Shown in pieces: positions 10,642 to 36,505 of a stretch of 36,505 bases of DNA. The DNA is from Bacteroidota bacterium (GTDB lineage: Bacteria > Bacteroidota > Bacteroidia > Bacteroidales > B18-G4), in NCBI GenBank assembly GCA_018831055.1, contig JAHJRE010000110.1, positions 1 to 36,505 on the forward strand. The letters are read 5' to 3'. A program made the translations under genes and the position numbers. The notes below the pieces were generated by a model. The model did not search any database. It had not been told where the DNA came from and saw only the letters and a program-made list of their open reading frames with translations. Position 1 is the stretch's first letter; each line of letters opens with the position of its first letter.

Positions 10642-10797
10642 CAATTCAGAGCCTGGCAAGCCATTTTGTCACATATACAAATCTAAATATGACTTTTTGT
10701 AAAGGAAAGATGAATACTTATTGATTTGGCATGTTATTCGCTTAAACCTCAGCCAAAATCCACAAAGTTTAACGATATTTGTAAAAAAGCCATTACC

Positions 10798-11745
10798 ATG
10801 AGCGAAACCACAGAAAAAGTACAATGCCTGATCATTGGATCGGGGCCTGCAGGTTATACCGCAGCCATTTATGCAGCACGTGCCGACCTAAAACCTGTTA
10901 TTTATGAAGGTTTACAACCGGGCGGGCAGTTAACCACAACCACAGAAGTCGAAAATTTCCCGGGATACCCTGAGGGCATCACAGGGCCGGTTATGATGGA
11001 AGATTTAAAAAAGCAGGCACTTCGGTTTGAAACGGATGTGCGTTTTGGTTTGATCACCGGGGTCGACTTTTCCCAAAGGCCATTTAAAGTCAAAGCCGAC
11101 GACGGGAAGACCATCCTGGCCGAAACCGTGATCATAGCTACCGGCGCAACAGCCCAATGGTTGGGATTACCATCTGAATCGGAATATAACGGTTATGGCG
11201 TGTCGGCCTGTGCCACCTGCGACGGGTTTTTCTACCGCGGAAAGGTTGTGGCCGTTGTTGGCGGTGGGGATACGGCAGCAGAAGAAGCTACCTATCTCGC
11301 CAAGCTTTGCAAAAAGGTTTATCTCATCCACCGCCGTGATGAGCTCCGCGCTTCCAAAGCCATGCAGAAGAAAGTCCTGGAAACACCCAATATTGAGGTG
11401 CTCTGGAGCCATGTCACCAAAGAGATCGTTGGGAAAAAAGAAGGTTTCGCCAAGGCTGTTACAGGTGCCATCCTGCAAAATGTAAAAACCGGGGAAGAAA
11501 AAACGATCGATATCGATGGTTTCTTTGTAGCGATCGGACATAAGCCCAACACAGAGATCTTCAAAGGACAGCTTGAAACCGATGATCTGGGATATATCCG
11601 TACGAAGCCTGATTCGACCAAAACCAATATTGAAGGGGTGTTTGCCTGCGGCGATGTACAGGATCACGTCTTCCGCCAGGCCATAACAGCGGCCGGAACA
11701 GGATGCATGGCCGCTATCGAAGCGGAACGCTTCCTGTCACACTAA
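10798..11745 (+). CDS. trxB: Thioredoxin-disulfide reductase
   Basis: The FAD-binding GSGPAGYTAA motif, the redox-active CATCDG motif and the NADPH-binding GGGDTAAEEA motif are all present. The start is placed at the internal ATG (MSETTEKVQCLIIGSGPAG...) rather than at the ORF-track start 10726. Confidence 0.9.
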   Translation: MSETTEKVQCLIIGSGPAGYTAAIYAARADLKPVIYEGLQPGGQLTTTTEVENFPGYPEGITGPVMMEDLKKQALRFETDVRFGLITGVDFSQRPFKVKADDGKTILAETVIIATGATAQWLGLPSESEYNGYGVSACATCDGFFYRGKVVAVVGGGDTAAEEATYLAKLCKKVYLIHRRDELRASKAMQKKVLETPNIEVLWSHVTKEIVGKKEGFAKAVTGAILQNVKTGEEKTIDIDGFFVAIGHKPNTEIFKGQLETDDLGYIRTKPDSTKTNIEGVFACGDVQDHVFRQAITAAGTGCMAAIEAERFLSH

Positions 11746-13473: not shown

Positions 13474-13507
13474 GGGTTAAATTTTACGGAAAGATAGGGG
13501 TTTTTGA

Positions 13508-13540: not shown

Positions 13541-13557
13541 GCAGTTCTCATTAAATG

Positions 13558-16683: not shown

Positions 16684-16792
16684 AAGTATTGATTTTAATA
16701 AAATTTGAGATAAAAGACCTGAAGCCGGATACTTGCAACCTGTAACCTGCAGCGCAAAAAATTAAGTGAATAGCCATCCCCCATGGCATTTG

Positions 16793-16870: not shown

Positions 16871-17056
16871 AGGTAATTTTGTGTGGCAAATCAAGAGAAA
16901 ACTTTCATATATTATTAACATGAAATAAGGCTCCTAAATAACATTCCCAAGCAAGCATTATGTGAGGCAATTCTCCATTGAGTTTTTTACTTTAATCCGC
17001 TAACCAAACTACTCTGATTATTCTTGATAAATCAGGAAACGGGTAGTGATTAATTT

Positions 17057-17125
17057 ATTAATCTATCCACAATAGTCACAATAAAACACAGTAATAGACT
17101 TAAAAAACTAATGTGTGCTATTGTG
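17057..17125. repeat. Perfect 17-bp inverted repeat (ccacaatagtcacaata ... tattgtgactattgtgg) with a 35-nt spacer; the right arm is copy 2 of the ctattgtggt motif
   Basis: The arm 17057-17073 is the exact reverse complement of 17109-17125. The repeat starts about 24 nt past the stop of LamG paralog 2 (which ends at 17149). It lies about 375 bp upstream of LamG paralog 1. Confidence 0.6.
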
Positions 17126-17148
17126 ACTATTGTGGTGAAATACAATCA

Positions 17149-20100
17149 CTAATACGTCACCAACACCTTACGGCTCACAACTCCCTCGCTTGCCCGGAAA
17201 CACACCACATACAAGCCTCCGGGAAGGTTATGGGAATAGCTTTGTTCAGATTCTCCATCCAAAATGCCCGATAACACAGGTTTGCAGGTCATATCGAATA
17301 CGGCAAACTGCCCGGTAAGCTGTTCAGGATTGCTTATATGCAACGTATTACCACCGTTCCAGGCTAAAATATTTATAACCGAACCGGTAAACTGTTTTTC
17401 TCCGATCCCCACCGTGCTGAAATGCAGCAGGAAGCGCCCGGGATCATCGCCTTCGGTTGCGGTAAAGCTGTAAATGGGTTCATTGGTCAGGTTATGGGTA
17501 GTCTGGGTTTGGAGGTCGGTTAAGAAAACCGGAAGATCAGGATCAAGATCATCCGTTCCTTCAATCCGGATGTAAAATTGTGTTCCCTCATTTTTTATAA
17601 AATATAAGGGAATCTGTATGCTTTCACTAAGCTCCGGCAGACCGTTGGTCGATACTGCCTTCCCTTCGGTTTGCGTATAAAACTGAGGTGCATACCCCGG
17701 CAGATACCAGCAATCATAAGCAATATCATAACTCTGGCTTGCTTCAGGTATAAAACGGATCACCGTTTCCTGGGTAGTATGGTACTCAACATCATGAACC
17801 GTAAGCTTTAACGTGTTGACTCCTGTTGATTTATACCAAACATCCGTTTCATGACTTCTTAATGCCTTCGGGATGATCAGGCTTCCTGTCTGGTTTTCTG
17901 CCACATACACCATAAACCCTTGCATTGGCGGGATCATCTCTCCATTATCTATATCCGTATAGGAAGCGCTGCTTTCCTGCCAGATCTTTGCCGTGCTGCC
18001 TATATTCTGCTGCTGCCAATTGAGATCCCATTCAATGTCCCATGTCCAAATAACACCACACGGAAATGGATTTCCCAGCAAATGCCACCCTCTGTTCTCC
18101 GAAGTAAGGGTGTGTGTGAGGTTAGTGATGCTTACATTGGAATTATTCCAGGTTCCGCTGAATGACTTGGTCTGATCTGATCCGTAAGCCACCAGATATC
18201 CCTTTCCCACCGTGAAGGTGCTTTCAAAACTGCTGTTCCAGCTTCCATCTCCGGCCTTGGTGTTGATCCAGTAATTCGTGGGTTCATCCCAACTGTAAAA
18301 GTCCTCATTTACTGTGGGGGGATCGGATACAAAACCCGGCTGAATGGCCTGAGCTGAAACGGGAGAAGAAAGAAAATGCCAGCCATGATTAGCATCGGTC
18401 CATTGTGCAATATAGCGCTGAATTTCATAACTTCCGGATCCTGAATACGTACCGTCAGCAACAACGGAACCTGTTCCTGATGATGTACTTTCCAGAAGGA
18501 AAGTTCCCTCATTGACAATACCACTGTATATGTCGATCATCCCTCCCGGCCTGACCGTTAAAGTTTTTCCTGAGGTAATAACCGCCTTATCAACACGCAT
18601 TCCACAATTGTCGGGTATATCAAAATCTGAGTTTACCAGAAAGTTTTCATCCACATCCAATGGATTGGAAAAGGTAATATCCGCACTGGCGCCTATCACC
18701 AGGTTCCGGCATTCGATGTTCCAGTCATAGGATGGTTGTACCGAGGCCCCCCCGTAATAATAAACCCCGGTGTTATGGCCGGTTGTGGGGTATGATCCGA
18801 GGCTCCAGTTGGAGGTGGTACGCCAGTTGCTGTTGGTTGTATTCAACCAGGTGTTGAAGGCGGAAGAAGCTGTCCAGGATGGAATGGTATAAGAACCTCC
18901 ACCACTTCCCTGCCAGGTGCCGTCAATATCATTACCCGAGATATCCTGCAGGCTTGTCCCGGTAACATTATCAAATGTATAATAAGCAGCCAGGTTGCTT
19001 TCCTGGGTTACATCGAGCATCCGGCACATATTTTCACGAAGCTCCAATGGTGTTCTTACATCATTCCATATCCTGAGTTCATCAATGGAACCATTCATCA
19101 GACGGCCACCCGGTTCACCGGGTGAATCCCCGATCCTTGGATTTTGTGAAGAGGACAAGATCGATGTCGAATGGCTCGAGGAATACACTTCAACACCGTT
19201 AACATAAAGCCGGACATCAGATCCGTCGTAAGTAGCTGCGACATGCTGCCAGGTATTCAACGTCAATACCCCGGTGGCAATAGTGACTGCCCAGTTATAA
19301 CCCCCTGAATACGACATCGTAAAATCAAGGTCACCTCCAGCCCCTCCAAACCGGAATACATAACCCTCACTGTTCGCTCCCCCCCAATAATCATTTCCGA
19401 TGATCGTGTTCTTAAAATATTCATCCTTGAAATCAGTCGGGTATATCCAGGCTTCAATTGAAATATTGGTACCGGTAATATTTAATGCACTTTCTAATGC
19501 TACGTAGTCGTCAGTCCCATCAAAACCCAGGCACTGCTTTGGCCCGAAAAGTGCCGGGGATGTCTGCCATTCATTACCGCTCATATTTGTGAGGGTACCA
19601 TTAAAACTCCCTTTCGTGTCAATTGCAGTAGTTCCGGTGGTCTCGTTAAGCTTATAGTAAGCGACAAGATCCGAACCCGGACTGATGATCTCCCGGTACA
19701 TGTTCTGCCGGATCTCATCCTGGGTCCTGGCATCGTTCCATATCCTTACTTCATCCATCAATCCGTCAAAATATCTTTCGGTGCCCGATCCACCAATTTC
19801 CATAGTACTCATACCATTGGTAATATTCCCGGTATGGGCAACGGTTTTCTCCAGGATACCATTCACATATATTCTCAGATTCGATCCATCATAGGTACCT
19901 GCAATGTGATACCATTTGTTTACTAGCATTTGAGTTGTGCCGGTGCATTTTTTATTTCCGGAGCCTGTCGTAACTACAAATTGGGGAATATCATTGTCTT
20001 CCAGTTCGCCAGGATGGCTATCCCCAATCCTGAGTAAGGATGAAGCATCGTTGTGCCCGGCAACATTTGATATCCTGGCATCCGGAACCGGATCATTGAA

Positions 20101-20274
20101 TGAATGCGGATAAACCCAGGCTTCTATTGTGATTCCTGAAAATCCATTGGAACTTAAGCCTGTAATGCTTATATAATCATTATCGCCGGCAAAGTCGAGT
20201 AAGTTGTTCTGTGCCATGGAATTAATCCCTAAAATCCAAAGCAAAACAATTGACAATAATATTTTAGTCTTCAT
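17149..20274 (-). CDS. T9SS-secreted LamG multidomain protein, paralog of 13558-16683 (also 1041 aa)
   Basis: It has the same architecture and is collinear with its paralog, for example IDELRIWNDVRTPLELRENMCRML...AAYYTFDNVTGTSLQD...SAFNTWLNTTNSNW against LDELRIWSDVRTEEEIRDNMCKTL...VAYYTFDNYSGSALQD...TAFNTWLNTSSSNW. The T9SS C-terminal domain is ...GGLYVVCFRASEGVVSRKVLVTY. Confidence 0.75.
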   Translation of the reverse strand: MKTKILLSIVLLWILGINSMAQNNLLDFAGDNDYISITGLSSNGFSGITIEAWVYPHSFNDPVPDARISNVAGHNDASSLLRIGDSHPGELEDNDIPQFVVTTGSGNKKCTGTTQMLVNKWYHIAGTYDGSNLRIYVNGILEKTVAHTGNITNGMSTMEIGGSGTERYFDGLMDEVRIWNDARTQDEIRQNMYREIISPGSDLVAYYKLNETTGTTAIDTKGSFNGTLTNMSGNEWQTSPALFGPKQCLGFDGTDDYVALESALNITGTNISIEAWIYPTDFKDEYFKNTIIGNDYWGGANSEGYVFRFGGAGGDLDFTMSYSGGYNWAVTIATGVLTLNTWQHVAATYDGSDVRLYVNGVEVYSSSHSTSILSSSQNPRIGDSPGEPGGRLMNGSIDELRIWNDVRTPLELRENMCRMLDVTQESNLAAYYTFDNVTGTSLQDISGNDIDGTWQGSGGGSYTIPSWTASSAFNTWLNTTNSNWRTTSNWSLGSYPTTGHNTGVYYYGGASVQPSYDWNIECRNLVIGASADITFSNPLDVDENFLVNSDFDIPDNCGMRVDKAVITSGKTLTVRPGGMIDIYSGIVNEGTFLLESTSSGTGSVVADGTYSGSGSYEIQRYIAQWTDANHGWHFLSSPVSAQAIQPGFVSDPPTVNEDFYSWDEPTNYWINTKAGDGSWNSSFESTFTVGKGYLVAYGSDQTKSFSGTWNNSNVSITNLTHTLTSENRGWHLLGNPFPCGVIWTWDIEWDLNWQQQNIGSTAKIWQESSASYTDIDNGEMIPPMQGFMVYVAENQTGSLIIPKALRSHETDVWYKSTGVNTLKLTVHDVEYHTTQETVIRFIPEASQSYDIAYDCWYLPGYAPQFYTQTEGKAVSTNGLPELSESIQIPLYFIKNEGTQFYIRIEGTDDLDPDLPVFLTDLQTQTTHNLTNEPIYSFTATEGDDPGRFLLHFSTVGIGEKQFTGSVINILAWNGGNTLHISNPEQLTGQFAVFDMTCKPVLSGILDGESEQSYSHNLPGGLYVVCFRASEGVVSRKVLVTY

Positions 20275-20363
20275 TCTATATTATGTTTAAGTATATAAAA
20301 ATTGTAAAACCCTTAGGATAAAAGTTAACACGATACACCCAGGACAGGGCAATGCAGAAAATA

Positions 20364-20420
20364 GCTTAATGACTGATCTGGCTTGGCTTTCTGTCATTTA
20401 ATTAATCACAATTGACCCAA
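20364..20420 (-). promoter_or_regulatory. Conserved 5' element upstream of LamG paralog 2 (copy B)
   Basis: The sequence gcttaatgactgatctggcttggctttctgtcat (20364-20397) is the second copy of the copy-A element. It is followed by a conserved tgacccaa block and lies about 90-145 bp upstream of the ATG at 20274. Confidence 0.55.
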
Positions 20421-20596
20421 TTATATGAAGTTATAAAAATATATCATTTTTTAGATTAAATCAAGATTTTTTTCATGGAATAGACTCTTTCAATAAGCCA
20501 AAAATTTCAAATAAAACTTTCTATTGCATTTCTGCTTAATCAGTAAAGACAGCCAACTCTATAAATAAGAACCAGAAAAATAACGTATAATGCAAT

Positions 20597-20625
20597 CTAA
20601 TGTGTACTACTGTGACTATTGTGGT
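20597..20625 (+). promoter_or_regulatory. Copy 3 of the ctaatgtgt...ctattgtggt motif, 65-95 bp upstream of the TPR–AraC regulator 20719-22437
   Basis: The sequence ctaatgtgtactactgtgactattgtggt matches copy 2 at 27 of 29 positions. It is in sense orientation relative to the plus-strand regulator gene. Confidence 0.5.
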
Positions 20626-20718
20626 AAAAAAACCTTAAACCAATCCCATAGTATTTATAACTTTGGCAAGATTGGTAAATCTTAACAACATTTGGGATCA
20701 AAAGAAAAATCTCAGAGT

Positions 20719-22437
20719 ATGCTTAAAAGATTGTTGCACCTGTTAACCTTACTGCTTTTTGCTGGCATTCAAACGATTACATCTCAGAACAACACAGATG
20801 AAAGGCTATTCAGCCAACTTGATTCCCTGGAAGGGGAAGAGTTCAGGAAGAGTGTTGCTATTGTTCTTGACTCCATTTCCAGAATACCCGATTATCAATC
20901 TAAAAAAGCATACGTTAATTCTATCTTTACTATAACAGCTCAAAAGGATGAAATTGCACATATCCAGTCGTTGGTGCATACCGCCAGACTTACCGGCTCT
21001 TCCTCCAAAAAGCTTTTTGACAAGGCCTATCAAATTGCTTTCAAGCATAATCGTATCGACGATATGTGCCTTGTAGAACATGCCAGGGGATTGCATTATA
21101 TAGCAGAAAAAAAGTTCGACTCCGCTATGATCCATATTCTCAGGTACCGGGATATGACCCCGGAAGATACTAAAGGCGAAGGCTACAGAAATATCATTAA
21201 CCTCCTGGGAGATATTTATTACTATGCCGGATTGTATAACCAGGCAAGGGATATTTATTTTAACTTATACACACAATATAAAACAGATAATATCTGGAAC
21301 TTCTACAGGCCATACGTTATGATGAACAATCTCGGACAAATTGCCCTGTACTCCGGCGATATGTCTGAAGCAAAAAAATGGTTTATCCAATCGCTTGAAC
21401 GGGCAGACCAATATCTGCATACTTCCTACCGCAATAATACAATGGCCTATACGAGAATCAAACTTGCCGAAACAGAACTGGAATCGGGGAATCTGGACAG
21501 TGCCCGGATGCTGCTTGACGAAGTTGACAAATATCCTGAAACTACCCTTCATGAAGATGTTTTTCAGGAATATCTTTTCTGCAAAACAAAAATGCTGCTT
21601 GCTCAGGGAAAAGCAAACGAAGCCTTTAACACAGCCCATCTGCTGAAACCATCCGACTCTGTGTCATTTAACCAATATCGTTTTATTCCTGACATATATC
21701 TGCTGCTTTCGGATATTTACCTCCAGCAAAATGATTCTGCTTTGGCCTTTACGCATCTGCAGAAATATCAGAAAATCTCCGACTCCCTGCATAAAAGCGA
21801 AAACATCGCACAGTCAATGATTATCCTTGCCAACCGGAACCATGAACTTACCCGGAACGAACTGAAGTCAACAAAACAACGAAACCGGACACTCTACGGT
21901 GGACTGGTGGTTCTTTTAACCGTACTTCTCATTGTACTGTTCCAATACAGAAGCTTGTACCGGTCCAAACTTAAACTGGTCAGAAAATCGATGGAGAATA
22001 TTGGTGGTTTTGATTTACCTGAATTGAAAAAGGAAGCAGAACAATTACAAAACCATACAAATGAAACTGATTTACAAGAACAAAGAAAACTAATCAATAG
22101 GTTACGGGAATACATGGAATCCCAAAAACCATATTTGGATCCCGGGCTTAATATCCAGGAAACGGCAAAACAATTAACCACCAACCGGACTTACTTATCA
22201 CGAGCCATCAATACTCAACTGGGAACAACTTTTCCTAACTTCATCAACAACTACCGTATCCAGGAAGCCATCCGTCTCATCACGACCGGGTTTACCAAAA
22301 ACCACACTCAGGAAGCACTCGCCAAAAGATCGGGCTTTGCCAGCCGCACAGTCTTTACCTCCGCCTTTAAAAAAATCACCGGAGTAGTACCCTCGTTCTT
22401 TATTGCAAAGTATAAAGATGTTGAGAGGGAAGGGTGA
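20719..22437 (+). CDS. Membrane-anchored TPR / AraC-family HTH regulator, paralog of 11782-13473
   Basis: It has a signal peptide (MLKRLLHLLTLLLFAGIQTITSQ), a TPR-like region and a transmembrane helix (LYGGLVVLLTVLLIVLFQY). The C-terminal AraC HTH reads ...YLDPGLNIQETAKQLTTNRTYLSRAIN...RIQEAIRLI...EALAKRSGFASRTVFTSAFKKITGVVPSFF. An alternative upstream ATG lies at 20692. Confidence 0.75.
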   Translation: MLKRLLHLLTLLLFAGIQTITSQNNTDERLFSQLDSLEGEEFRKSVAIVLDSISRIPDYQSKKAYVNSIFTITAQKDEIAHIQSLVHTARLTGSSSKKLFDKAYQIAFKHNRIDDMCLVEHARGLHYIAEKKFDSAMIHILRYRDMTPEDTKGEGYRNIINLLGDIYYYAGLYNQARDIYFNLYTQYKTDNIWNFYRPYVMMNNLGQIALYSGDMSEAKKWFIQSLERADQYLHTSYRNNTMAYTRIKLAETELESGNLDSARMLLDEVDKYPETTLHEDVFQEYLFCKTKMLLAQGKANEAFNTAHLLKPSDSVSFNQYRFIPDIYLLLSDIYLQQNDSALAFTHLQKYQKISDSLHKSENIAQSMIILANRNHELTRNELKSTKQRNRTLYGGLVVLLTVLLIVLFQYRSLYRSKLKLVRKSMENIGGFDLPELKKEAEQLQNHTNETDLQEQRKLINRLREYMESQKPYLDPGLNIQETAKQLTTNRTYLSRAINTQLGTTFPNFINNYRIQEAIRLITTGFTKNHTQEALAKRSGFASRTVFTSAFKKITGVVPSFFIAKYKDVEREG

Positions 22438-22442
22438 AAAAT

Positions 22443-22561
22443 GGGGGCTGTGAGGCTGGGAGGCTGGGAGGCTGGGGGGCTGTGGATTTATCAGTGGGAT
22501 ATGGTATAATTATTAAAAAAGGTTACATAGGGTTCCCAGTCCCCAGCACCCCAGTCCCCAG
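22443..22561. repeat. Mirrored low-complexity repeat blocks: a G-tract block (tandem GGCTGGGA-like units) and a C-tract block (CCCAGTCC-like units) separated by a 47-nt AT-rich spacer
   Basis: The block 22443-22485 is gggggctgtgaggctgggaggctgggaggctggggggctgtgg. The block 22535-22561 is cccagtccccagcaccccagtccccag. The two blocks are imperfect reverse complements and each contains at least four G3+ or C3+ tracts. They lie between the regulator stop (22437) and the CDF start (22626). Confidence 0.6.
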
Positions 22562-22625
22562 TTTCCATTCCCCCTATACTTGCATCCTTTTTCATATTCC
22601 TTATCTTTGCACAAACATCACTTCC

Positions 22626-23555
22626 ATGTCAAACCGTAACCGTCAGATCATAAGGGCATCCTGGGTAGGGGTGTGGGGTAATGCCCTGCTGTCGGTATTA
22701 AAGATATCTGTAGGTTTGATCGCCGGCAGCCTTGCTGTTGTCGGGGATGGAATTGATTCAGCAGGTGATATTATCGCATCCGTTATCACCCTGCTTACTG
22801 CACGGCTGATGTCGCGCCCACCCAATATGAAGTTCCCGTATGGTTACGAAAAAGCCGATGCTCTCGCTTCCAAAGTGCTTTCGTTTATCATGTTCTTTGC
22901 CGGTGCGCAGTTGGGGATATCTGCGGTGAGTGGCCTTATCCGCGGTGTGGAAAGGGAGATGCCCGCAATGTTCGCAATCTATGCGACCCTGATCTCAATA
23001 GCAGGAAAACTGTTGCTCTCCTGGCATCAGCACAGAGCAGGCAAAAAACTCGACAGCCCCATGCTCGTTGCCAACGGCAGAAATATGCAAAATGATGTAA
23101 TCATCTCCGGGGCTGTTCTTGCAGGCTTGTTTTTTACCTTTTTTCTGAAACTTCCTGTTATCGATTCCATAACTGCCATCCTGGTCAGCCTCTGGATCAT
23201 GTATGCTGCCTATGGCATTTTCATGAAAACCAATCCTGAACTTCTCGACGGAGTGCACGATGAAAAAATCTACGACGATGTTTTCAGGGTGATATCCTCC
23301 ATCAAAGGAGTATATAATCCGCACCGGGCCAGGATTCGCAAAGTGGGGAACCAGTTCGTCATCGCCATCGATATCGAGGTCGATGGCAATAAAACCGTAC
23401 ACGAAGCCCACGATATTGCCCGCCAGGTTGAAGATGCTCTTAAGTCTTCCATTGCTAATGTGTACGACATCCTTGTCCACGTCGAACCCTATGGCAATAT
23501 TGAGAAAGACGAGAAATACGGTGTCTCGGGAAAGGATATCCACGGGATATCCTGA
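22626..23555 (+). CDS. Cation diffusion facilitator (CDF) family metal efflux transporter
   Basis: From the internal ATG (MSNRNRQIIRASWVGVWGNALLSVLKISVGLIAGSLAVVGDGIDSAGD...) the sequence shows the TM1–TM2 signature of CDF transporters, six predicted helices and a C-terminal cytoplasmic domain. The 5' extension from the ORF-track start 22434 runs through a G-rich/C-rich repeat and is unlikely to be coding. Confidence 0.8.
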   Translation: MSNRNRQIIRASWVGVWGNALLSVLKISVGLIAGSLAVVGDGIDSAGDIIASVITLLTARLMSRPPNMKFPYGYEKADALASKVLSFIMFFAGAQLGISAVSGLIRGVEREMPAMFAIYATLISIAGKLLLSWHQHRAGKKLDSPMLVANGRNMQNDVIISGAVLAGLFFTFFLKLPVIDSITAILVSLWIMYAAYGIFMKTNPELLDGVHDEKIYDDVFRVISSIKGVYNPHRARIRKVGNQFVIAIDIEVDGNKTVHEAHDIARQVEDALKSSIANVYDILVHVEPYGNIEKDEKYGVSGKDIHGIS

Positions 23556-28182: not shown

Positions 28183-29958
28183 TTGCGTATGGAGGTAACT
28201 CGACTCTTTGACCTGTTGCCGTATCATAAAAATAAATTCCAGCCAAAAGACGATGTCCTGGCAGGAAAAGAAGACGGTGTATGGATCAAATACAGCATCG
28301 ACCAGTATATCGAAGCAGCTGAAAACATCAGCTACGGCTTTCTGAAACTGGGAGTCCAAAAGGGCGACAAGATCGCTACCATTTCCAACAACAGGCCCGA
28401 ATGGAATTTTCTGGATATGGGCATAGCCCAGACCGGCGCCATCCATGTACCGATCTACCCCACCATCAGCGAGGCCGATTACAAGTATATCCTGAATCAT
28501 GCTGAGGTTAAATATGTTTTCGTTGCCGGTCAGGAACTGCTCAGGAAAATTGAGCATATCCTGCCTGAAGTCCCCAGTTTGAAAGGCTTATATACTTTCC
28601 GGCATATCGATACGGTTAAGCATCTGAAAGACCTGATCGACCTTGGCAAAGCCAATCCCGTACCCGAAAAGCTACAGGAAATACGCGATTCCATCAAACC
28701 CGACGATATAACTACCCTCATCTATACTTCCGGAACCACAGGAGTTCCCAAAGGAGTGATGCTGACGCACGCCAACCTTCTCAGCAATGTGGAAGGGGTT
28801 TACCGTATCTTTCCCCTTGATGAGACCTGCATCGGACTAAGTTATCTGCCGCTGTGCCATGTGTATGAGCGCATGAACATTTACACCTACCAGTATCTCG
28901 GTGTTTCCATTTATTATGCTGAAAACATGGGGACTATCGGCGATAACATCAGGGAAATATCCCCGCATATCCTTACCACCGTGCCGCGCCTCCTGGAAAA
29001 GGTTTATGACAAGATACTCGCCAAAGGGCGCAAACTGAAAGGAGTTAAGAGAAACATTTTCTTCTGGGCGGTTAACCTGGCTAATGCTTACGAACTCAAG
29101 GGAAAGAGCCCTTTTTACAGGATGCAGCTCGCCATTGCCGATAAACTGGTATTCAGCAAATGGAGGGAAGCGCTCGGAAACCGCATGAGAGTGATCGTAT
29201 CTGGTGGAGCAGCATTACAGCCAAGGCTGGCCAGAATATACACCGCAGCCGGCATACCTGTCCTGGAAGGCTACGGACTGACAGAAACCTCACCGGTTAT
29301 CGCCGTGAACAACTTCGACCCCGGCGGACAAAAATTCGGAACCGTCGGCCCTCCCTTGCATAACGTGCAGGTGAAAATAGGCGACGACGGAGAGATCCTG
29401 GCCAAAGGACCCAATGTCATGGTTGGCTATTACAAGGAACCCGAACTGACAAAGGAAGTCCTTACCCCCGACGGTTGGTTCCATACCGGCGATATGGGCA
29501 TGATCGACGAAGACGGCCACCTGAAAATCACCGGAAGGAAAAAAGAGATCTTCAAGACTTCCCTCGGTAAATACATCAGCCCCCAGCTCCTGGAAAACCG
29601 TTTCAAAGAAAGTCCTTTCATCGATGCCGCAATGGTGGTCGGAGAACATCAGAAATATGCCGCTGCACTTATCGTACCCGATTTTGTCTACCTGCGCTCA
29701 TGGTGCGGCGTGAAAGGGATCCCCTACACATCCGATGAGGATATGATCACCCACAAAGAGATCAAAGACCGCATCAAAAAAGAAATCGACCATTACAACT
29801 CCTTCTTCGGAACCACCGAAAAAGTGATGAGCCACGATATCCTCGGGAAAGAATGGTCGGTCGAGAACGGAGAACTAACCGCCAGCCTTAAACTCAGAAG
29901 AAACTTCATCCACGAAAAGTACAAAGAGAATATTGAGAGGCTTTTTGCGGGGAAATAA
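28183..29958 (+). CDS. Long-chain fatty-acid–CoA ligase (AMP-dependent synthetase/ligase)
   Basis: The AMP-binding motif LIYTSGTTGVPKGVMLTHANL, the ...EGYGLTET... block and the ...GWFHTGDMGMIDEDGHLKITGRKKE... block are all present. Confidence 0.85.
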   Translation: MRMEVTRLFDLLPYHKNKFQPKDDVLAGKEDGVWIKYSIDQYIEAAENISYGFLKLGVQKGDKIATISNNRPEWNFLDMGIAQTGAIHVPIYPTISEADYKYILNHAEVKYVFVAGQELLRKIEHILPEVPSLKGLYTFRHIDTVKHLKDLIDLGKANPVPEKLQEIRDSIKPDDITTLIYTSGTTGVPKGVMLTHANLLSNVEGVYRIFPLDETCIGLSYLPLCHVYERMNIYTYQYLGVSIYYAENMGTIGDNIREISPHILTTVPRLLEKVYDKILAKGRKLKGVKRNIFFWAVNLANAYELKGKSPFYRMQLAIADKLVFSKWREALGNRMRVIVSGGAALQPRLARIYTAAGIPVLEGYGLTETSPVIAVNNFDPGGQKFGTVGPPLHNVQVKIGDDGEILAKGPNVMVGYYKEPELTKEVLTPDGWFHTGDMGMIDEDGHLKITGRKKEIFKTSLGKYISPQLLENRFKESPFIDAAMVVGEHQKYAAALIVPDFVYLRSWCGVKGIPYTSDEDMITHKEIKDRIKKEIDHYNSFFGTTEKVMSHDILGKEWSVENGELTASLKLRRNFIHEKYKENIERLFAGK

Positions 29959-30003
29959 CCTTGGGAGTGATAACGGTTTATTTCATGGAGGATTAACAAA
30001 GCG

Positions 30004-30062
30004 TTGCAGGGTGCAGGTTACAGGTTGCAAGTTGCAACCTGCCGCCTGCAACCTGCAACCTG
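30004..30062. terminator. Long imperfect palindrome with a 21-nt perfect core (caggttgcaa-g-ttgcaacctg, 30021-30041) between convergent genes; candidate bidirectional terminator
   Basis: Three GCAGG(G/T)T units on the left mirror three CAACCTG units on the right. The structure lies between the acyl-CoA ligase stop (29958, +) and the flotillin stop (30092, -). No clear U-tract follows, which is common in Bacteroidota. Confidence 0.45.
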
Positions 30063-30091: not shown

Positions 30092-31525
30092 TCATTTTAT
30101 ATCCGCATCCTCTTCCCCTTTATCTTTCTGATGCCCGTTATTTTCACTTTTTTTCTCTTCTTCCTTCTTTCCCTTCAGATACTCCGGCAACTCCATTCCT
30201 GCCTGGCGGAACAGATCCTGCAAGGGTGGGATGGCGGTCATCAGGCTGGAGAAAAAATTGGCTGTGGCTGAAGTATGGCCGTCTTTACCGCTTGACATGG
30301 TATCCCAAACGGTAACCTTGTCGATCTTCAGGTTCTTAACAGCTTCCACCTGGGTTCTCACCAGCTCGGGCAGTTTGTCGGCAATCATCATCATTACCGC
30401 TTTCTGTGCATCCTTTTCAGCTGCCTGTACAAGTTCTTTAAATCCCTCCGCCTGTTTGTCAAGGATCTCGAATATCCCTTTTCCTTCCGCTTCCATCTTC
30501 ATAAAAATGGCATCGGCATCTCCTCTGGCATGCCTGCGGGTTTGCTCCGCGATGGCCTCTGCAGCTATCTCCACCTTCTCCTTATCTATGATGGCAGGAA
30601 CGATGATATCGGCTTTACGGGTAGCTTCCTCCCTTTTCGCACGGACGGTCTCGGCTTCTCTTTCTGCTGCGTATGCTTCTTCAAGGGCTTTGGCCTCGTT
30701 GACCTTTTCGGCGGCAACCGCAAGTCGTTCGGCTTCAGCTTCTTTCTCTCGACGCGTGGCATTGGAATTGGCAATTTGTATCTTGGCCGTATTCTCACCT
30801 TCCACAGCACTGGCATCAGCCTGTGATACCTTGATACGCTGGTCTTTCAGGGCATTCGCTTCACCAATGGATCCGTCACGGTTCTTCTCAGCCACACTCC
30901 GCTTTGCATCGTTGATAGCTTTGGCAGCCGCTTCCTTACCCAGAGCCTCTATATAACCCGATTCATCATTGATATCGGTCACATTCACGTTGATCAGCTT
31001 CAACCCTACTTTCTTCAGTTCCGCTTCCACATTCCTGGAAACAGCATCCAGGAAAAGATCGCGGTTGCTGTTGATCTCCTCAATGTCCATGGTGGCAACT
31101 ACCAGACGAAGCTGTCCGAAAATAATATCCTTGGCCAGATTGCTGATGCTCTCCTGCGAAAGCCCCAGCAAACGCTCGGCAGCGTTCGACATAACACCTG
31201 CTTCCGTAGAGATCCCCACGGTAAAAATCGATGGAACATCAACCCGGATGTTCTGCTTGCTCAGCGCGCTGCGCAGATTGATCTCAATGGAAATCGGCGT
31301 CAGATCCAGGAACTCATAATCCTGGATGACCGGCCAGATAAAGGCTGCACCCCCATGGATGCACTTGGATGAACGGTACTCGGCAAGTCCTCCCCTGCCA
31401 ATTTTTCCGTAAACAACCAGAATACGATCCGACGGACAACGCTTGTACCTCCTGAGAAAGGTTACGATCAGGATAAAAACAAAAAGTGCCGCAAGAATTA
31501 CAATAATGACTAAATACTGTCCCAT
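30092..31525 (-). CDS. Flotillin-like SPFH/band-7 protein (FloT/YqiK type, 477 aa)
   Basis: It has an N-terminal membrane anchor and an SPFH domain (...GGAAFIWPVIQDYEFLDLTPISIEINLRSALSKQNIRVDVPSIFTVGI...). A long Ala/Glu-rich coiled-coil flotillin repeat region (...AEAERLAVAAEKVNEAKALEEAYAAEREAETVRAKREEATRKA...) is followed by a Lys/Glu-rich tail. Confidence 0.85.
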   Translation of the reverse strand: MGQYLVIIVILAALFVFILIVTFLRRYKRCPSDRILVVYGKIGRGGLAEYRSSKCIHGGAAFIWPVIQDYEFLDLTPISIEINLRSALSKQNIRVDVPSIFTVGISTEAGVMSNAAERLLGLSQESISNLAKDIIFGQLRLVVATMDIEEINSNRDLFLDAVSRNVEAELKKVGLKLINVNVTDINDESGYIEALGKEAAAKAINDAKRSVAEKNRDGSIGEANALKDQRIKVSQADASAVEGENTAKIQIANSNATRREKEAEAERLAVAAEKVNEAKALEEAYAAEREAETVRAKREEATRKADIIVPAIIDKEKVEIAAEAIAEQTRRHARGDADAIFMKMEAEGKGIFEILDKQAEGFKELVQAAEKDAQKAVMMMIADKLPELVRTQVEAVKNLKIDKVTVWDTMSSGKDGHTSATANFFSSLMTAIPPLQDLFRQAGMELPEYLKGKKEEEKKSENNGHQKDKGEEDADIK

Positions 31526-33453: not shown

Positions 33454-35526
33454 ATGAACGAGAAGACCATTCGTCCCTTCGGGGATATTGTAGTGAGAAT
33501 TCCGCGTTTGCCCCTGCAAGTGGCGGAAGACCTGCTGAACGGAAACATTTCGGAAGAGAAGATCAAATCTTATCTCCTTGACCAGGATGTGCTGGAAGCT
33601 ATCGGATCCGCTTCAGCCTCCCTGAAATCTTCATTGGTGAAATGGCTCAATGGCCAGCCACTTCCTGATAAAAAGCGAAACTCGCTGCTGTTTAAAAGCA
33701 TGCAATACCTGATCCGCATGTCATCGCGCCCTACCCCTTTCGGATTGATGACCGGACTGACCACAGGATGCTGGTCTGATGAAAATATCATCGAGTTCAA
33801 TGGCAAGGAAAGGATTGATTCCCGCCCTGATATGCAATTCTGCCGCCATCTGGCCGGGGTCCTGGAAACATCGGAAGACGGGGAGAACCTGAAGTTTTTC
33901 CCTAACAGCAGTATATACAGGGTTTTTGAAGAGCTGAGGTTCTTCAGAGCAGGAAAATCCGGTAAAACGACGAAGCTACATTCAATCGAAGATCCCGGAA
34001 TCCTTGAAAAACTGGCTGAATTTTGCAGGAAAGGCAAAACCAAAGCGGAGATCAGACAGTTTTGGGATTCCGGTCACAAAGGTACTTTTTTCCCTGAGGG
34101 TTTTCCGGAGGATCTGTTTCGCATGGGATTCCTGGTTCCGGAACTGGAGCCTAATGTATGCGGGCAAACGTATTACACCAGGATCAACGGATATATGAAG
34201 AAGGGATTTCCTGCATCCTGTAATATTCGCAAATCAGGACACCTTCATACCAGTCTTGTCATGGAAAATAAGCGCTGTGAGGCAGATATGAACCTGATCC
34301 CGGAAATTGTCTCTGCCATCAAGGTAATGCTGCAGCTTTTTCCAAAAAAGCCTTCCTCATTCCTGCAAAATTTCATCACATCATTCCGGCAAAACTACGG
34401 AAACAGTGAGATACCGCTGATGCGGGCCCTGGATCCCGAAACAGGGATCATCATCCCTGCTCCGATGCCATTCGGCGATTCAATATTGAAAGTCAATGAC
34501 TCAGAATTATCTGGCCGGCAATCCGTTACGCTCGACCGGACGGACCTTTTCCTGCTGAAGAAAATCCAGGAATCGTGGATAAAACAGCTTCCAACTATAC
34601 ATATAAGAGCAGGTGAGCTGCCCTGTCTGGATGATTTTGCCGGGTTATCCCCTACGTTCAATGTTCTGTTCAGTATTGTCGAGGTCCCGGGGAACACCCT
34701 GATCCACCTGCATGGCATCGGAGGCTTTTCCGCTTGCCATCTCCTGAGCAGGTTCGGTCATGCCGATCCGCATATTCGCAGCATCCTGGAAAAAATAACC
34801 GGGAAAGAAAAAGCGCCGGACGGAGCCATAGCGGCAGAAATAGTATTTTGTCCGCCGGGCAGGGAGGCAGACCTATGCGTCAGACCCGAACTCAGGGAAT
34901 ATGAGATCCCGGTTATGACACATTCCTGTAAAGATGAACTGCACAGGATATACCCGGCCGATCTGCTGCTTTGCCTCCGTAACGGTGAGCTTGTCCTGAA
35001 ATCCGCTAAACTCAACAGGTATATCATACCTTATGCAAGCCATACCCTCAATTTCCAAAATTACGATCTCCCGTTGCACCGACTGCTGTGTGAACTGCAA
35101 ACGCAATACCTTGGGGGTGGAATGCTCTTCGACTGGGGTGCCCTGAGCAGGCTGTTTCCGGTACTGCCGAGAGTGATGACGGGTAGCACCATCCTCATGC
35201 CCGCCTCCTGGCGCTTTCATGATGATGATATCTCAAGGTTCTTCAGCATCCACGACAAGGAAGAACTGAAAAAATCCATCACCCGTTGGCGCTACCGTTT
35301 CAGGATTCCGGCTAAGGTCGTTTGGTCGGCAAATGACCAGGAACTGCTGCTAAACCTGAATTCTTTTGCCGGTATTGAGCTATTCCTAAGGCTTAGCAAA
35401 AACAGCCGGGAAATACTCCTGAAGGAATTTCTGATGGGAGGCTCACATCTCGTGAAAGGCAATAAGGGATATCACCTTCATGAAATCATTGCTCCGTTTT
35501 ATCTTGAAGGGAAAGAGAGAAAATGA
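33454..35526 (+). CDS. Lanthipeptide dehydratase LanB, N-terminal glutamylation domain (split LanB, 690 aa)
   Basis: The N-terminal ...VVRIPRLPL... block and the hallmark SSRPTPFGLMTGL block correspond to the R-x-TPFGLF core of Lant_dehydr_N domains (compare NisB RSTPFGLFS). The size fits a stand-alone glutamylation domain. The gene sits directly after lanC and overlaps the next gene by 4 bp. Confidence 0.8.
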   Translation: MNEKTIRPFGDIVVRIPRLPLQVAEDLLNGNISEEKIKSYLLDQDVLEAIGSASASLKSSLVKWLNGQPLPDKKRNSLLFKSMQYLIRMSSRPTPFGLMTGLTTGCWSDENIIEFNGKERIDSRPDMQFCRHLAGVLETSEDGENLKFFPNSSIYRVFEELRFFRAGKSGKTTKLHSIEDPGILEKLAEFCRKGKTKAEIRQFWDSGHKGTFFPEGFPEDLFRMGFLVPELEPNVCGQTYYTRINGYMKKGFPASCNIRKSGHLHTSLVMENKRCEADMNLIPEIVSAIKVMLQLFPKKPSSFLQNFITSFRQNYGNSEIPLMRALDPETGIIIPAPMPFGDSILKVNDSELSGRQSVTLDRTDLFLLKKIQESWIKQLPTIHIRAGELPCLDDFAGLSPTFNVLFSIVEVPGNTLIHLHGIGGFSACHLLSRFGHADPHIRSILEKITGKEKAPDGAIAAEIVFCPPGREADLCVRPELREYEIPVMTHSCKDELHRIYPADLLLCLRNGELVLKSAKLNRYIIPYASHTLNFQNYDLPLHRLLCELQTQYLGGGMLFDWGALSRLFPVLPRVMTGSTILMPASWRFHDDDISRFFSIHDKEELKKSITRWRYRFRIPAKVVWSANDQELLLNLNSFAGIELFLRLSKNSREILLKEFLMGGSHLVKGNKGYHLHEIIAPFYLEGKERK

Positions 35527-36413: not shown

Positions 36414-36505
36414 GTTATGAGTTATTTTACATTTTAAAGTAACTGAAGTTTCGCATTAAAATATTGCTATTGTTTTTTGTACCCACCCCCTGGCCCCCTC
36501 CCTGC

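What the first reader, a model, noticed from the sequence alone, without database searches (positions are those of the whole stretch)
22443..22561. Mirrored G-tract and C-tract tandem-repeat blocks, quadruplex-capable on opposite strands, in the promoter region of the CDF transporter
Immediately after the regulator stop lies gggggctgtgaggctgggaggctgggaggctggggggctgtgg, which is GGCTGGGA-like units carrying GGGGG, GGG, GGG and GGGGGG tracts. A 47-nt AT-rich spacer follows (atttatcagtgggatatggtataattattaaaaaaggttacataggg). Then comes cccagtccccagcaccccagtccccag, which carries four C3-4 tracts. The blocks are imperfect reverse complements. They can therefore form either a long imperfect hairpin or a G-quadruplex on the plus strand together with a second G-quadruplex on the minus strand. 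Such GC-rich low-complexity sequence stands out in this AT-rich genome. A similar C-tract string, acccaccccctggccccctccctgc, ends the window at 36481-36505. That hints at a dispersed element family. The site could act as a terminator for the upstream regulator gene, a structured promoter element for the metal-efflux gene, or a footprint of a repeat element.
Basis: seen in the sequence. Interest (0 to 1): 0.5.

Follow-up and report, generated by a model that had tools for sequence, protein, structure and literature searches.

The report
Mirrored short-repeat hairpin between two genes
The G-rich and C-rich repeat blocks are real and form a long hairpin at the end of a regulator gene; it is a gene-less copy of a widespread, poorly understood class of intergenic repeat hairpins that in other bacteria often enclose a small "four-helix-bundle" gene.

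Summary
An 8-nt array, (GGCTGGGA)~5, lies at 22442-22485, 6 nt after the regulator's stop. A 49-nt AT-rich spacer follows, then a 7-nt array, (CCCCAGT)~4-5, at 22535-22575, ending just before the CDF gene's Bacteroidetes-type promoter. The sequence is identical in three assemblies and far beyond chance.

It is not unique. The window holds similar arrays or hairpins at three other gene 3' ends, and related Bacteroidales loci have many. The exact octamer array occurs in 86 species across many phyla. It often follows a stop codon, and any mirrored partner is almost always downstream.

In an unbiased sample of 60 TIGR02436/PF05635 (23S rRNA IVS protein) genes, 63% sit between such mirrored arms. 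This is the architecture of the Coxiella IVS, whose stem RNase III cuts.

Best reading: a gene-less member of the known hepta/octanucleotide repeat class (STRR, Xanthomonas/Nostoc G-rich repeats). It most likely acts as an RNA hairpin (-68 kcal/mol) that marks or processes the regulator transcript's 3' end.

G-quadruplex capacity is real but probably incidental. Function is inferred, not shown.

The parts
22442..22485 (+). 5' arm: G-rich 8-nt tandem array (GGCTGGGA-like, about 5 units). It begins 6 nt after the TGA stop (22435-22437) of the TPR + HTH_AraC regulator gene 20692..22437.
   Evidence: TRF period 8, 5.2 copies, score 61. Direct-repeat family D1. G4Hunter +1.96. Coordinates checked.
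22486..22534 (.). Spacer or loop: 49 nt, AT-rich, with no ORF.
   Evidence: Sequence. Exact-match search of both spacer halves over all loci.
22535..22575 (+). 3' arm: C-rich 7-nt tandem array (CCCCAGT / CCCCAGCA units, core 22535-22561, degenerate tail to 22575). The complement is GGGGACT, the heptamer that Rehm et al. (PMC4692102) describe in Nostoc.
   Evidence: TRF period 7, 5.4 copies, score 41. Canonical C3+ x4 motif and G4Hunter -2.2. Literature.
22441..22577 (+). Whole predicted RNA hairpin: 37 base pairs between the G arm and the C arm. The full fold has 50 pairs (26 G-C, 11 G-U, 13 A-U) and an energy of -68.2 kcal/mol.
   Evidence: ViennaRNA folds. Plus-strand RNA is -68.2 and minus-strand RNA is -53.3 kcal/mol. 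It is the second strongest 120-nt fold in the window.
22579..22609 (+). Context only, not part of the element: Bacteroidetes-type promoter of the CDF gene. It has a -33-like TTG near 22580 and the -7 box TATCTTTG at 22602-22609. The CDF ATG is at 22626.
   Evidence: Sequence. The block CTTATCTTTGC plus ATG spacing is conserved upstream of the CDF gene in L003 and L004. The consensus TAnnTTTG is from my own background knowledge.
30003..30062 (.). Sibling element: (GTTGCAG)~5 directly followed by (CTGCAAC)~4. It is a near-perfect hairpin between the convergent genes 28183..29958(+) and 30092..31525(-).
   Evidence: TRF. Fold -54.9 kcal/mol, z = -10.7. Strongest fold in the window.
17067..17135 (.). 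Sibling element: a hairpin whose 27-nt arms contain CACAATAGT-type repeats. It lies 14 nt beyond the stop of the LamG/T9SS gene 17149..20274(-). The outer stem is conserved in relative L003.
   Evidence: Inverted repeat I3, 89% complementary. Sequences.
36400..36425 (+). Sibling array (GTTATGA)x3.7 that overlaps the stop codon of gene 35523..36413.
   Evidence: TRF score 45. Sequence.
36481..36505 (+). C-tract string at the window end. The window and two independent assemblies all end within 3 nt of this point, as expected for a repeat that breaks assemblies. Its partner, if any, is unseen.
16733..16753 (+). Solo half-array TTGCAACCTGTAACCTGCAGC, of the same unit family as 30003-30062. The orthologous site in L003 is an expanded (AACCTGC)x5.4 array at the contig start.

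Best explanation
The element is a gene-less member of a widespread class of intergenic "mirrored short-tandem-repeat hairpins".

Anatomy. A purine/G-rich 7-8-nt array starts a few nucleotides after the stop codon of the upstream gene. Its approximate reverse complement lies ahead of the next gene.

Proposed mechanism. Transcription of the regulator gene runs into the element, and the two arms pair into a roughly 37-bp imperfect double-stranded RNA stem (about -68 kcal/mol). That stem most likely defines the 3' end of the regulator transcript. It would block 3' exonucleases and/or serve as an RNase III processing site. This keeps the regulator message separate from the CDF transporter gene, which has its own promoter immediately downstream.

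Shown here: the anatomy, the predicted fold, the position, the recurrence of the class, and its link to 4HB/IVS cassettes.

Inferred: that the hairpin forms in vivo, and that it is processed or stabilising. This rests on analogy with the Coxiella 23S rRNA IVS, where a heptamer-containing inverted-repeat stem around a 4HB ORF is cut by RNase III, and with REP elements.

The quadruplex potential is a by-product of this particular unit sequence.
For: 1. Anatomy and fold. A quadruplex-aware fold keeps the hairpin.

2. All five strong arrays or hairpins in the window lie within 0-45 nt of gene 3' ends.

3. The class recurs:
- (GGCTGGGA)n was found in 86 species' genomes.
- The array starts within 30 nt of the stop of a same-strand ORF in 23 of 60 loci, against 7 of 60 for the opposite arrangement.
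- A mirrored partner lies downstream in 16 of 76 loci and upstream in 2 of 78.

4. Related Bacteroidales carry 7-8-nt arrays at gene junctions. This includes the region downstream of paralogous LamG-regulator pairs.

5. In an unbiased sample, 38 of 60 TIGR02436/PF05635 genes have reverse-complementary flanks. The cross-locus control gives 3.2% and far flanks give 3 of 45. Arrays of period 7-8 occur in 45% of upstream and 42% of downstream flanks, against 2.5% of control windows.

6. Literature:
- The Coxiella IVS has a 28-bp terminal inverted-repeat stem and tandem GACAGAT heptamers around an S23p (4HB) ORF. RNase III cleaves it in vitro within the stem (PMC4990558).
- 23S rRNA IVSs in general are cut by RNase III.
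- STRR heptamers form hairpins in cyanobacteria and have been proposed to stabilise transcripts (PMC2670836).
- Convergent G-rich heptamer pairs lie close to stops in Xanthomonas (PMC4692102).

7. The plus-strand (sense) RNA folds 15 kcal/mol better than the antisense RNA, through 11 G-U pairs.
Against: - There are no transcript data, so no hairpin, end or cleavage has been observed.
- There is no U tract, and related Bacteroidales do use canonical hairpin + T10 terminators. Termination as such is therefore doubtful.
- Arm-to-arm covariation across loci was not detectable (own 0.751 against cross 0.735).
- At 38 4HB cassettes the antisense stem was slightly more stable than the sense stem (25 against 12, p = 0.007). 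This gives no support for selection on sense-RNA pairing.
- The sense advantage at other (GGCTGGGA)n loci is confounded by how those loci were ascertained.
- Arrays and whole cassettes also sit in frame inside coding genes. That fits a selfish or mutational origin better than a host function.
- The closest relative (L003, CDF 82% identical) lacks the whole segment and the CDF gene is still present. The element is therefore dispensable for the CDF gene.
Confidence: 0.45

Rival explanations
1. Neutral or selfish repeat with no host function. The arrays arise by replication slippage and inverted duplication, or they are the empty site or excision footprint of a hairpin-associated mobile cassette (4HB gene, toxin-antitoxin pair). 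The element is simply tolerated between two genes.
For: - Unit sequences differ from site to site while the architecture stays the same.
- Cargo in the loop varies: nothing, a 4HB gene, an RHH+ParE pair, a tRNA.
- Arrays and cassettes occur in frame inside a leuS-like and a methylase-like gene.
- Relative L003 lacks the segment.
- Contigs break at arrays (also reported in PMC4679880).
- Published studies found no function.
Against: - Arrays are tightly placed next to stop codons and show a strict G-first polarity. This needs a targeting rule or selection.
- The sequence is identical in three assemblies, with no length variation.
- No second copy of the spacer and no transposase are seen.
Confidence: 0.3
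2. G-quadruplex / i-motif switch. The G block on the plus strand and the G-rich complement of the C block on the minus strand fold into quadruplexes in DNA or RNA. These pause RNA polymerase at the end of the regulator gene, or modulate the adjacent CDF promoter.
For: - G4Hunter gives +1.96 and -2.2, the window extremes.
- There are four tracts per block, matching the preference for four units reported for GGGNATC/GGGGAYT repeats.
- CD spectroscopy showed that such repeats form quadruplexes in vitro (PMC4692102).
- The position after a stop on the sense strand, and before an ORF on the antisense strand, matches that paper.
Against: - Sibling hairpins in the same window, and most arrays flanking 4HB genes, have no G tracts. 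Variants such as GGCTGGAA cannot form three-tetrad quadruplexes.
- With both arms in one RNA, the hairpin wins by more than 40 kcal/mol.
- The plus-strand block needs a 10-nt loop.
- Rehm et al. could not find a regulatory role.
Confidence: 0.1
3. Canonical Rho-independent terminator of the regulator gene.
For: A stable GC-rich stem starts 6 nt after the stop codon.
Against: - The consensus scan found no terminator-like site in 22000-23000.
- The loop is 49 nt, and the stem is followed by TTTCC rather than a U run.
- A related genome shows ordinary hairpin + T10 terminators.
- Cassettes with the same stems sit inside operons, for example between cmr3 and cmr2 (PMC3936711), and inside ORFs.
Confidence: 0.05
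4. Protein-binding or phase-variable promoter element. The tandem units are operator sites for the adjacent AraC-type regulator, or a contingency repeat that changes CDF promoter strength by slippage.
For: - The arrays lie between a regulator gene and the next promoter.
- Geobacter authors annotated similar paired hepta/octamer arrays as putative global-regulator sites (PMC2700814).
- Heptamer copy number varies between Coxiella strains.
Against: - There is no length variation among three assemblies.
- The arrays lie outside the -33/-7 spacer.
- The same arrays occur next to unrelated genes in many phyla.
- A period of 7-8 nt does not match helical phasing. This last point is inference.
Confidence: 0.05

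Closest known systems
G-rich heptameric SSRs of Xanthomonas (GGGAATC) and Nostoc (GGGGAYT), Rehm et al. 2015 (PMC4692102); cyanobacterial STRR heptamers
   Same: - They are 7-nt tandem units with a G tract and a preference for about four units.
- They are intergenic. They lie within about 50 nt after a stop on the sense strand, or before an ORF on the antisense strand.
- They often form convergent inverted pairs (70-75 per Xanthomonas genome) that can form stem-loops.
- The window's C-block unit is the complement of the Nostoc GGGGACT unit.
- Their function is unknown.
   Different: - The host here is a Bacteroidales MAG.
- One arm has an 8-nt unit (GGCTGGGA), so the arms have unequal periods.
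- The genome-wide copy number is unknown here.
- Sibling elements in the same window are not G-rich.
ORF-bearing 23S rRNA intervening sequence (Coxiella burnetii IVS with the S23p / PF05635 ORF, PMC4990558)
   Same: - Terminal inverted repeats form a long stem.
- Tandem heptamers lie at the 5' end.
- This is the same architecture I find around 63% of PF05635 genes outside rRNA.
- RNase III cuts the stem in vitro.
   Different: - The window element lies between protein-coding genes, not in rRNA.
- Its loop is 49 nt and carries no ORF.
- RNase III cleavage has not been tested.
REP / BIME / REPIN elements of enterobacteria and pseudomonads
   Same: - They are intergenic imperfect palindromes at gene 3' ends.
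- They often occur as inverted doublets that form long hairpins.
- They are known to protect upstream mRNA from 3' exonucleases.
   Different: - REPs are one conserved sequence family per genome, mobilised by RAYT transposases.
- Here each site has its own unit sequence, the arms are tandem repeats, and no RAYT is seen.
TAACTGA and other heptamer direct-repeat arrays in Beggiatoaceae, Cyanobacteria and Bacteroidetes (MacGregor 2015, PMC4679880); Geobacter metallireducens paired hepta/octanucleotide arrays (PMC2700814)
   Same: - They are heptamer or octamer arrays at gene boundaries, including in Bacteroidetes.
- Contigs end inside the repeats.
- In Geobacter the arrays are mostly in pairs on opposite strands.
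   Different: - TAACTGA arrays are mostly solo and lie just upstream of start codons.
- Their authors proposed translational or regulator-binding roles, not hairpins.
Canonical intrinsic terminator
   Same: A GC-rich stem lies directly after a stop codon.
   Different: There is no U tract. The loop is 49 nt and the stem about 37 bp. The scan was negative.

Membership tests
Intergenic hepta/octanucleotide SSR arrays (STRR; Rehm-type G-rich repeats) | Head-to-tail units of 7 nt (occasionally 8), with at least 2-4 copies | tested here: met
   TRF: period 7 x5.4 (22535-22573) and period 8 x5.2 (22442-22482). Shuffles give 0.02 such arrays per window.
Intergenic hepta/octanucleotide SSR arrays (STRR; Rehm-type G-rich repeats) | Intergenic and close to an ORF end. 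The G-rich strand is the sense strand after a stop, and the antisense strand before a start. | tested here: met
   The G array starts 6 nt after the stop at 22437. The C array ends 51-65 nt before the ATG at 22626.
Intergenic hepta/octanucleotide SSR arrays (STRR; Rehm-type G-rich repeats) | Many dispersed copies per genome | tested here: inconclusive
   The window has five strong arrays in 36.5 kb, and related Bacteroidales loci have many. The rest of this genome could not be read, and contigs end at the arrays.
Intergenic hepta/octanucleotide SSR arrays (STRR; Rehm-type G-rich repeats) | Quadruplex formation of the G-rich strand in vitro | not testable with these tools
   Only sequence-based scores are available: G4Hunter +1.96 and -2.2, and a canonical motif on the minus strand only.
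Mirrored-array cassette around a TIGR02436/PF05635 gene (IVS-like) | A purine-rich tandem array 5' and its reverse complement 3', forming a stem | tested here: met
   37 inter-arm pairs, -68.2 kcal/mol. The polarity is the same as in 16 of 76 (against 2 of 78) octamer loci and 38 of 60 4HB genes.
Mirrored-array cassette around a TIGR02436/PF05635 gene (IVS-like) | A four-helix-bundle (23S_rRNA_IVP) ORF in the loop | tested here: not met
   The spacer is 49 nt with no ORF. A jackhmmer search with 4HB seeds found no hit in any window ORF.
Mirrored-array cassette around a TIGR02436/PF05635 gene (IVS-like) | The stem is cleaved by RNase III | not testable with these tools
   This is shown only for the Coxiella IVS in the literature.
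Canonical intrinsic terminator | A short GC-rich stem, a loop of 3-8 nt, and a U tract directly after the stem | tested here: not met
   The scan of 22000-23000 found none. The loop is 49 nt and the tail reads TTTCCATTCC.
REP/REPIN or MITE | Multiple near-identical copies of the same sequence (for a MITE, also target-site duplications) | tested here: inconclusive
   No second copy of the spacer or arms exists in the window or in any locus held, except the same locus in other assemblies. No flanking duplication was seen. The whole genome was not available.
Phase-variable (contingency) SSR | A repeat inside a promoter spacer or a 5' coding region, with unit-number polymorphism between isolates | tested here: not met
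   The arrays lie upstream of the -33 element. The length is identical in three assemblies from different samples.
Described RNA families (Rfam 15) | A match at or above a family's gathering score | tested here: not met
   None at gathering score. At E <= 1 there are only far-sub-threshold matches to eukaryotic miRNA-precursor hairpins, at 17-24 bits against 60-97 required.

The most novel reading that the evidence does not exclude
Mirrored hepta/octanucleotide hairpins may be the chromosomal stems of a widespread, so far unformalised cassette system. Small genes ride in the hairpin loop: mostly TIGR02436/PF05635 four-helix-bundle genes, and occasionally a toxin-antitoxin pair or a tRNA. The stem lets RNase III cut the cassette out of whatever transcript it sits in, whether rRNA (the classical ORF-bearing IVS), operon mRNA or even a coding region. 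On this reading, gene-less hairpins such as 22441-22577 are the empty or ORF-less form, the mRNA counterpart of short ORF-less IVSs. They would be either landing pads or footprints of that system.
Probability: 0.3. Interest if true: 0.8.

Novelty: new member of a known kind. Interest (0 to 1): 0.5.

Why it matters
Hepta- and octanucleotide arrays at gene boundaries have been reported piecemeal, without an accepted function, in cyanobacteria (STRR), Xanthomonas, Geobacter, Beggiatoaceae and a few Bacteroidetes.

This locus adds a Bacteroidales example. Following it outward gives a testable unifying lead. The same mirrored arrays bracket most members of the enigmatic "23S rRNA intervening-sequence protein" family far from any rRNA gene. 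That ties the repeats to a structure for which RNase III cleavage has been shown experimentally.

If the lead holds, it would explain three things: what these repeats are for, why they break assemblies, and how IVS-like cassettes can sit in rRNA, operons and ORFs without killing them.

For the two genes at hand the consequence is modest. The element probably separates the regulator transcript from the metal-efflux gene, which has its own promoter.

Tried and rejected
- Rfam at gathering score, and a tRNA scan of the window: nothing found. The permissive Rfam search gave only generic long-hairpin (miRNA precursor) noise.
- The sigma-70 promoter and terminator scan gave nothing relevant.
- Orthologous comparison of the element itself failed. 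The nearest CDF relatives have other upstream genes: L003 lacks window ~17180-22570, and L004 has a pyridine-nucleotide oxidoreductase upstream. The regulator has no homologue above 55% identity.
- Extending past the window end failed. The other two assemblies stop within 3 nt of it.
- Arm covariation between loci gave no signal.
- The comparison of sense and antisense stem stability at other octamer loci always favoured the ascertained strand. I judged it an ascertainment artefact. At 4HB cassettes the trend was weakly opposite.
- Open host reading frames through 4HB cassettes are only 3 of 65, and a second open frame is not rare in controls. I therefore report this as individual cases, not as a rule.
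- The MITE reading found no support: no second copy of the spacer.
- The CRISPR, riboswitch and small-ORF readings were dropped. There are no spacers of constant length, no Rfam hit and no ORF.
- The literature searches for the exact octamer string returned nothing. Those for TIGR02436/PF05635 returned papers, but none of the hits I read describes the general link between 4HB genes and mirrored arrays.
Full report
**What is there**

The window comes from an uncultured Bacteroidetes/Bacteroidales genome. The CDF protein is named "MAG ... [Bacteroidetes bacterium]" by NCBI. The genes have T9SS tails and TAnnTTTG-type promoters.

The gene at 20692..22437 (+) encodes a TPR + HTH_18/AraC regulator. 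The gene at 22626..23555 (+) encodes a cation-diffusion-facilitator transporter.

Between them, in order, lie:
- the TGA stop at 22435-22437;
- an 8-nt tandem array at 22442-22485 (TRF 5.2 copies, score 61);
- a 49-nt AT-rich spacer;
- a 7-nt array at 22535-22573/5 (5.4 copies, score 41);
- the CDF promoter (-7 box TATCTTTG at 22602-22609) and the ATG at 22626.

**Is it more than chance, and is it real?**

- In 100 dinucleotide shuffles, arrays of period 6-9 with TRF score 40 or more appeared twice in total. The window has five.
- The two blocks are the G4Hunter extremes of the window. Together they form its second most stable 120-nt fold.
- The 161-nt fold is -70.7 kcal/mol, with z = -3.5 against dinucleotide shuffles.
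- The locus is base-for-base identical in two other assemblies from different samples. It is therefore neither an assembly artefact nor visibly length-variable.

**Structure**

Folded as RNA, 22438-22578 gives one long imperfect stem with 37 pairs between the G arm and the C arm. The full fold has 50 pairs (26 G-C, 11 G-U, 13 A-U) and an energy of -68.2 kcal/mol. The arms alone, joined by a tetraloop, give -66.7 kcal/mol.

A quadruplex-aware fold returns the same hairpin. The isolated G block reaches only -15.7 kcal/mol, and the complement of the C block -24.5 kcal/mol. The plus-strand RNA is 15 kcal/mol more stable than the minus-strand RNA, because of the G-U pairs.

A canonical G3+ motif with loops of 7 nt or less exists only on the minus strand. 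The plus-strand block needs one 10-nt loop. No terminator-like or sigma-70-like site was found. No Rfam family matches.

**It is one of several in the window**

- 30003-30062 is (GTTGCAG)n directly followed by (CTGCAAC)n. It lies between two convergent genes, folds at -54.9 kcal/mol with z = -10.7, and is the strongest fold in the window.
- 17067-17135 is a hairpin with CACAATAGT-type repeated arms, 14 nt past the stop of a LamG/T9SS gene. Its outer stem is conserved in the relative L003.
- 36400-36425 is (GTTATGA)x3.7 and overlaps a stop codon.
- 16733-16753 is a solo CTGCAAC-type half-array. Its orthologue in L003 is expanded and is where that contig begins.
- The C-tract at 36481-36505 is where the window and both independent assemblies end, within 3 nt of each other.

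All of these lie within 0-45 nt of gene 3' ends. Only the element under study is G/C-rich, so quadruplex potential is not what these elements share.

**Relatives**

The element itself could not be compared across species. The closest CDF relative (L003, 82% identical) lacks window ~17180-22570 altogether. It keeps a remnant of the LamG 3' end and the CACAATAGT hairpin directly upstream of the conserved CDF promoter. L004 (74% identical) has a different upstream gene and no repeats. The regulator has no homologue above 55% identity.

Loci with paralogous LamG-regulator pairs in related Bacteroidales show the same habit:
- In L173 the regulator is followed by heptamer arrays that flank a tRNA-Gln gene. 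Three more 7-8-nt arrays lie at gene junctions within 17 kb.
- In L175 the regulator's stop is followed by 17-nt arrays, 146-181-nt modules and a PF05635 gene. That locus also has a (AGGTTGC/CAGGGGG)x13 array.
- L176 has (ACTGCGA)x12.6.

**The same octamer elsewhere**

GGCTGGGAGGCTGGGAGGCTG occurs in 86 stretches of species-representative genomes from many phyla. These include Desulfobacterales, Acidobacteriota, Planctomycetota, Verrucomicrobiota, Actinomycetota and one Bacteroidales. Several MAGs hold 3-4 separate loci.

- The array begins within 30 nt of the stop of a same-strand ORF of 100 aa or more in 23 of 60 usable loci. The mirror arrangement occurs in 7 of 60.
- A reverse-complement partner array lies within 300 nt downstream in 16 of 76 loci, but upstream in only 2 of 78. 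Within 700 nt downstream, 22 loci have one. The polarity "G-rich arm first" is therefore a rule, and the window element obeys it.

**What sits between widely spaced arms**

Where the arms are 300-600 nt apart they enclose small genes:
- TIGR02436 / PF05635 "four helix bundle / 23S rRNA intervening sequence" proteins in L007, L048 and L081, and at a second, independently located site in L019;
- an RHH + ParE toxin-antitoxin pair in L037.

I then took an unbiased sample of this protein family from metagenomes, retrieved by peptide motifs and so blind to the flanks. For 60 genes with 150-nt flanks on both sides:

| Measure | 4HB gene flanks | Control |
|---|---|---|
| Upstream flank reverse-complementary to downstream flank | 38 of 60 (63%) | 3.2% of cross-locus pairs; 3 of 45 flanks 150-300 nt away |
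| Tandem array present, period almost always 7 or 8 | 45% upstream, 42% downstream | 2.5% of control windows |
| Mean purine fraction of the array | 0.58 upstream, 0.41 downstream | not computed |

The unit differs from locus to locus. Examples are GGCTGGAA, GTTGCAAG, GTGAATA, GTCACAA and GGGGACT, the last being the unit of the window's C block.

Gene-less pairs with the same unit occur nearby in the same contigs, for example in L104 and L143.

**Link to the literature**

- Rehm et al. (PMC4692102) describe G-rich heptamers in Xanthomonas and Nostoc with the positional rules seen here, a preference for four units, 70-75 convergent inverted pairs per Xanthomonas genome, quadruplex formation in vitro, and no identified function.
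- STRR heptamers form hairpins in cyanobacteria (PMC2670836).
- Geobacter metallireducens has families of four tandem hepta/octanucleotide repeats, mostly in inverted pairs (PMC2700814).
- Heptamer arrays occur in a few Bacteroidetes, and contigs end inside them (PMC4679880).
- The Coxiella 23S rRNA IVS carries an S23p (PF05635) ORF, a 28-bp terminal inverted-repeat stem and 2-3 tandem GACAGAT heptamers at its 5' end. RNase III cuts within that stem in vitro (PMC4990558). IVSs in general are removed by RNase III without re-ligation.
- PF05635 genes have been noted between genes of operons, for example between cmr3 and cmr2 (PMC3936711).

None of the hits I read describes the general association of PF05635 genes with mirrored hepta/octamer arrays outside rRNA. 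The library does not hold most subscription-journal papers, so I cannot exclude prior description.

**Interpretation**

The element is a gene-less member of this class. I put about 0.85 on class membership.

For mechanism I commit to an RNA-level hairpin. The regulator transcript ends in, or is cut within, a roughly 37-bp imperfect dsRNA stem. This stabilises or defines its 3' end and separates it from the CDF unit, which has its own conserved promoter. That is inference by analogy with the IVS stem and with REP elements. I give the full statement 0.45.

Arguments against are listed with the best explanation above. The most important are:
- there are no transcript data;
- no arm covariation was detected;
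- the test of sense against antisense stability at 4HB cassettes was negative;
- arrays and cassettes occur inside ORFs.

These keep a "selfish or neutral repeat" reading alive at about 0.3. A quadruplex switch (0.1), a canonical terminator (0.05) and an operator or phase-variable repeat (0.05) are less likely, for the reasons given with each rival.

**Novelty and score**

The finding itself is a new member of a known, poorly understood kind. The wider pattern that came out of following it is the interesting part and is directly testable: most IVS-protein genes lie in the loop of mirrored short-repeat stems, with gene-less copies around them. Overall interest is 0.5.

Noticed in passing
L093-L172 (metagenome loci), L007, L019, L048, L081: TIGR02436/PF05635 four-helix-bundle (23S rRNA IVS protein) genes are usually bracketed by a purine-rich 7-8-nt tandem array upstream and its reverse complement downstream. 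This holds for 38 of 60 genes, against 3% of controls. The unit sequence differs from locus to locus. I found no general description of this in the searchable literature.
   Followed up: yes
L143 306..3239 (4HB gene 1486..1851); L164 15..2207 (4HB gene 1495..1863): A 977-aa leuS-like ORF and a 730-aa DNA-methylase-like ORF each read straight through a complete 4HB cassette with its mirrored arrays, in another frame and without a stop. The leuS ORF also carries two further in-frame (GGGGACT)/(CCCCAGT) arrays. Cassettes can therefore sit inside protein-coding genes.
   Followed up: partly
L037 (oriented on the G array; about 600 nt between the arms): Mirrored (GCTGGGA)n arrays enclose a ribbon-helix-helix (TraY-like, PF05509) antitoxin gene plus a ParE toxin gene (PF05016), instead of a 4HB gene.
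   Followed up: partly
L173 7485-7654: Heptamer arrays (ACTTCGT)x8.7 and (AATTACG)x4.6 flank a tRNA-Gln(TTG) gene (7546-7617, minus strand), just downstream of a paralogous TPR-AraC regulator. A canonical hairpin + T10 terminator lies next to them, so this clade does use ordinary terminators.
   Followed up: partly
L175 10351-11686: Downstream of another paralogous regulator lies a complex of 17-nt arrays (CTCATCCATCACNCAAT) and 146-181-nt tandem modules, with a PF05635 gene (10730..11083, minus strand) embedded. Here the flanking arrays are direct, not inverted.
   Followed up: no
window 36400-36505; L005 and L006 ends: The window and the two independent assemblies all end within 3 nt of one another, inside the C-tract ...CCCTCCCTGC, 92 nt after gene 35523..36413. 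The (GTTATGA)x3.7 array overlaps that gene's stop codon. What lies beyond is unknown.
   Followed up: partly
window ~17180-22570 compared with L003 1-560: The 82%-identical relative lacks about 5.4 kb: one LamG/T9SS gene, the regulator and the G/C element. It retains about 45 nt of the LamG 3' end and the CACAATAGT hairpin, which carries a 21-nt insertion in one arm, directly upstream of the conserved CDF promoter. This is a deletion in that lineage.
   Followed up: partly
window 22654-22678: A G-rich stretch inside the 5' part of the CDF coding region (GGGCATCCTGGGTAGGGGTGTGGGG) is the only canonical plus-strand G4 motif in the window. It is 75-83% complementary to the C block (inverted repeats I6 and I10). 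In a read-through transcript it could compete with the G arm for the C arm.
   Followed up: no
window 11782-22437: Two paralogous pairs, each a TPR-AraC regulator plus a 1041-aa Laminin_G_3 protein, are arranged as regulator(-) LamG(-) LamG(-) regulator(+). The same LamG-regulator pairing recurs in L173, L175 and L176, which suggests a conserved regulator-target module. Homologous LamG proteins in L173 carry a T9SS Por_Secre_tail domain.
   Followed up: no
window 32200-36413: The right end carries lanthipeptide-type dehydratase genes: Lant_dehydr_N at 33454..35526 and Lant_dehydr_C at 35523..36413. Upstream is a 399-aa ORF that is probably LanC-like, by synteny with L004. This may be a natural-product cluster cut off by the contig end.
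   Followed up: no
L035, L067: Some octamer-array loci in Deltaproteobacteria MAGs also contain GTAGGGGCGA...TCGCCCCTAC palindromes, a different REP-like repeat. In L060, long degenerate purine-rich arrays are followed by pyrimidine-rich arrays over about 500 nt.
   Followed up: no
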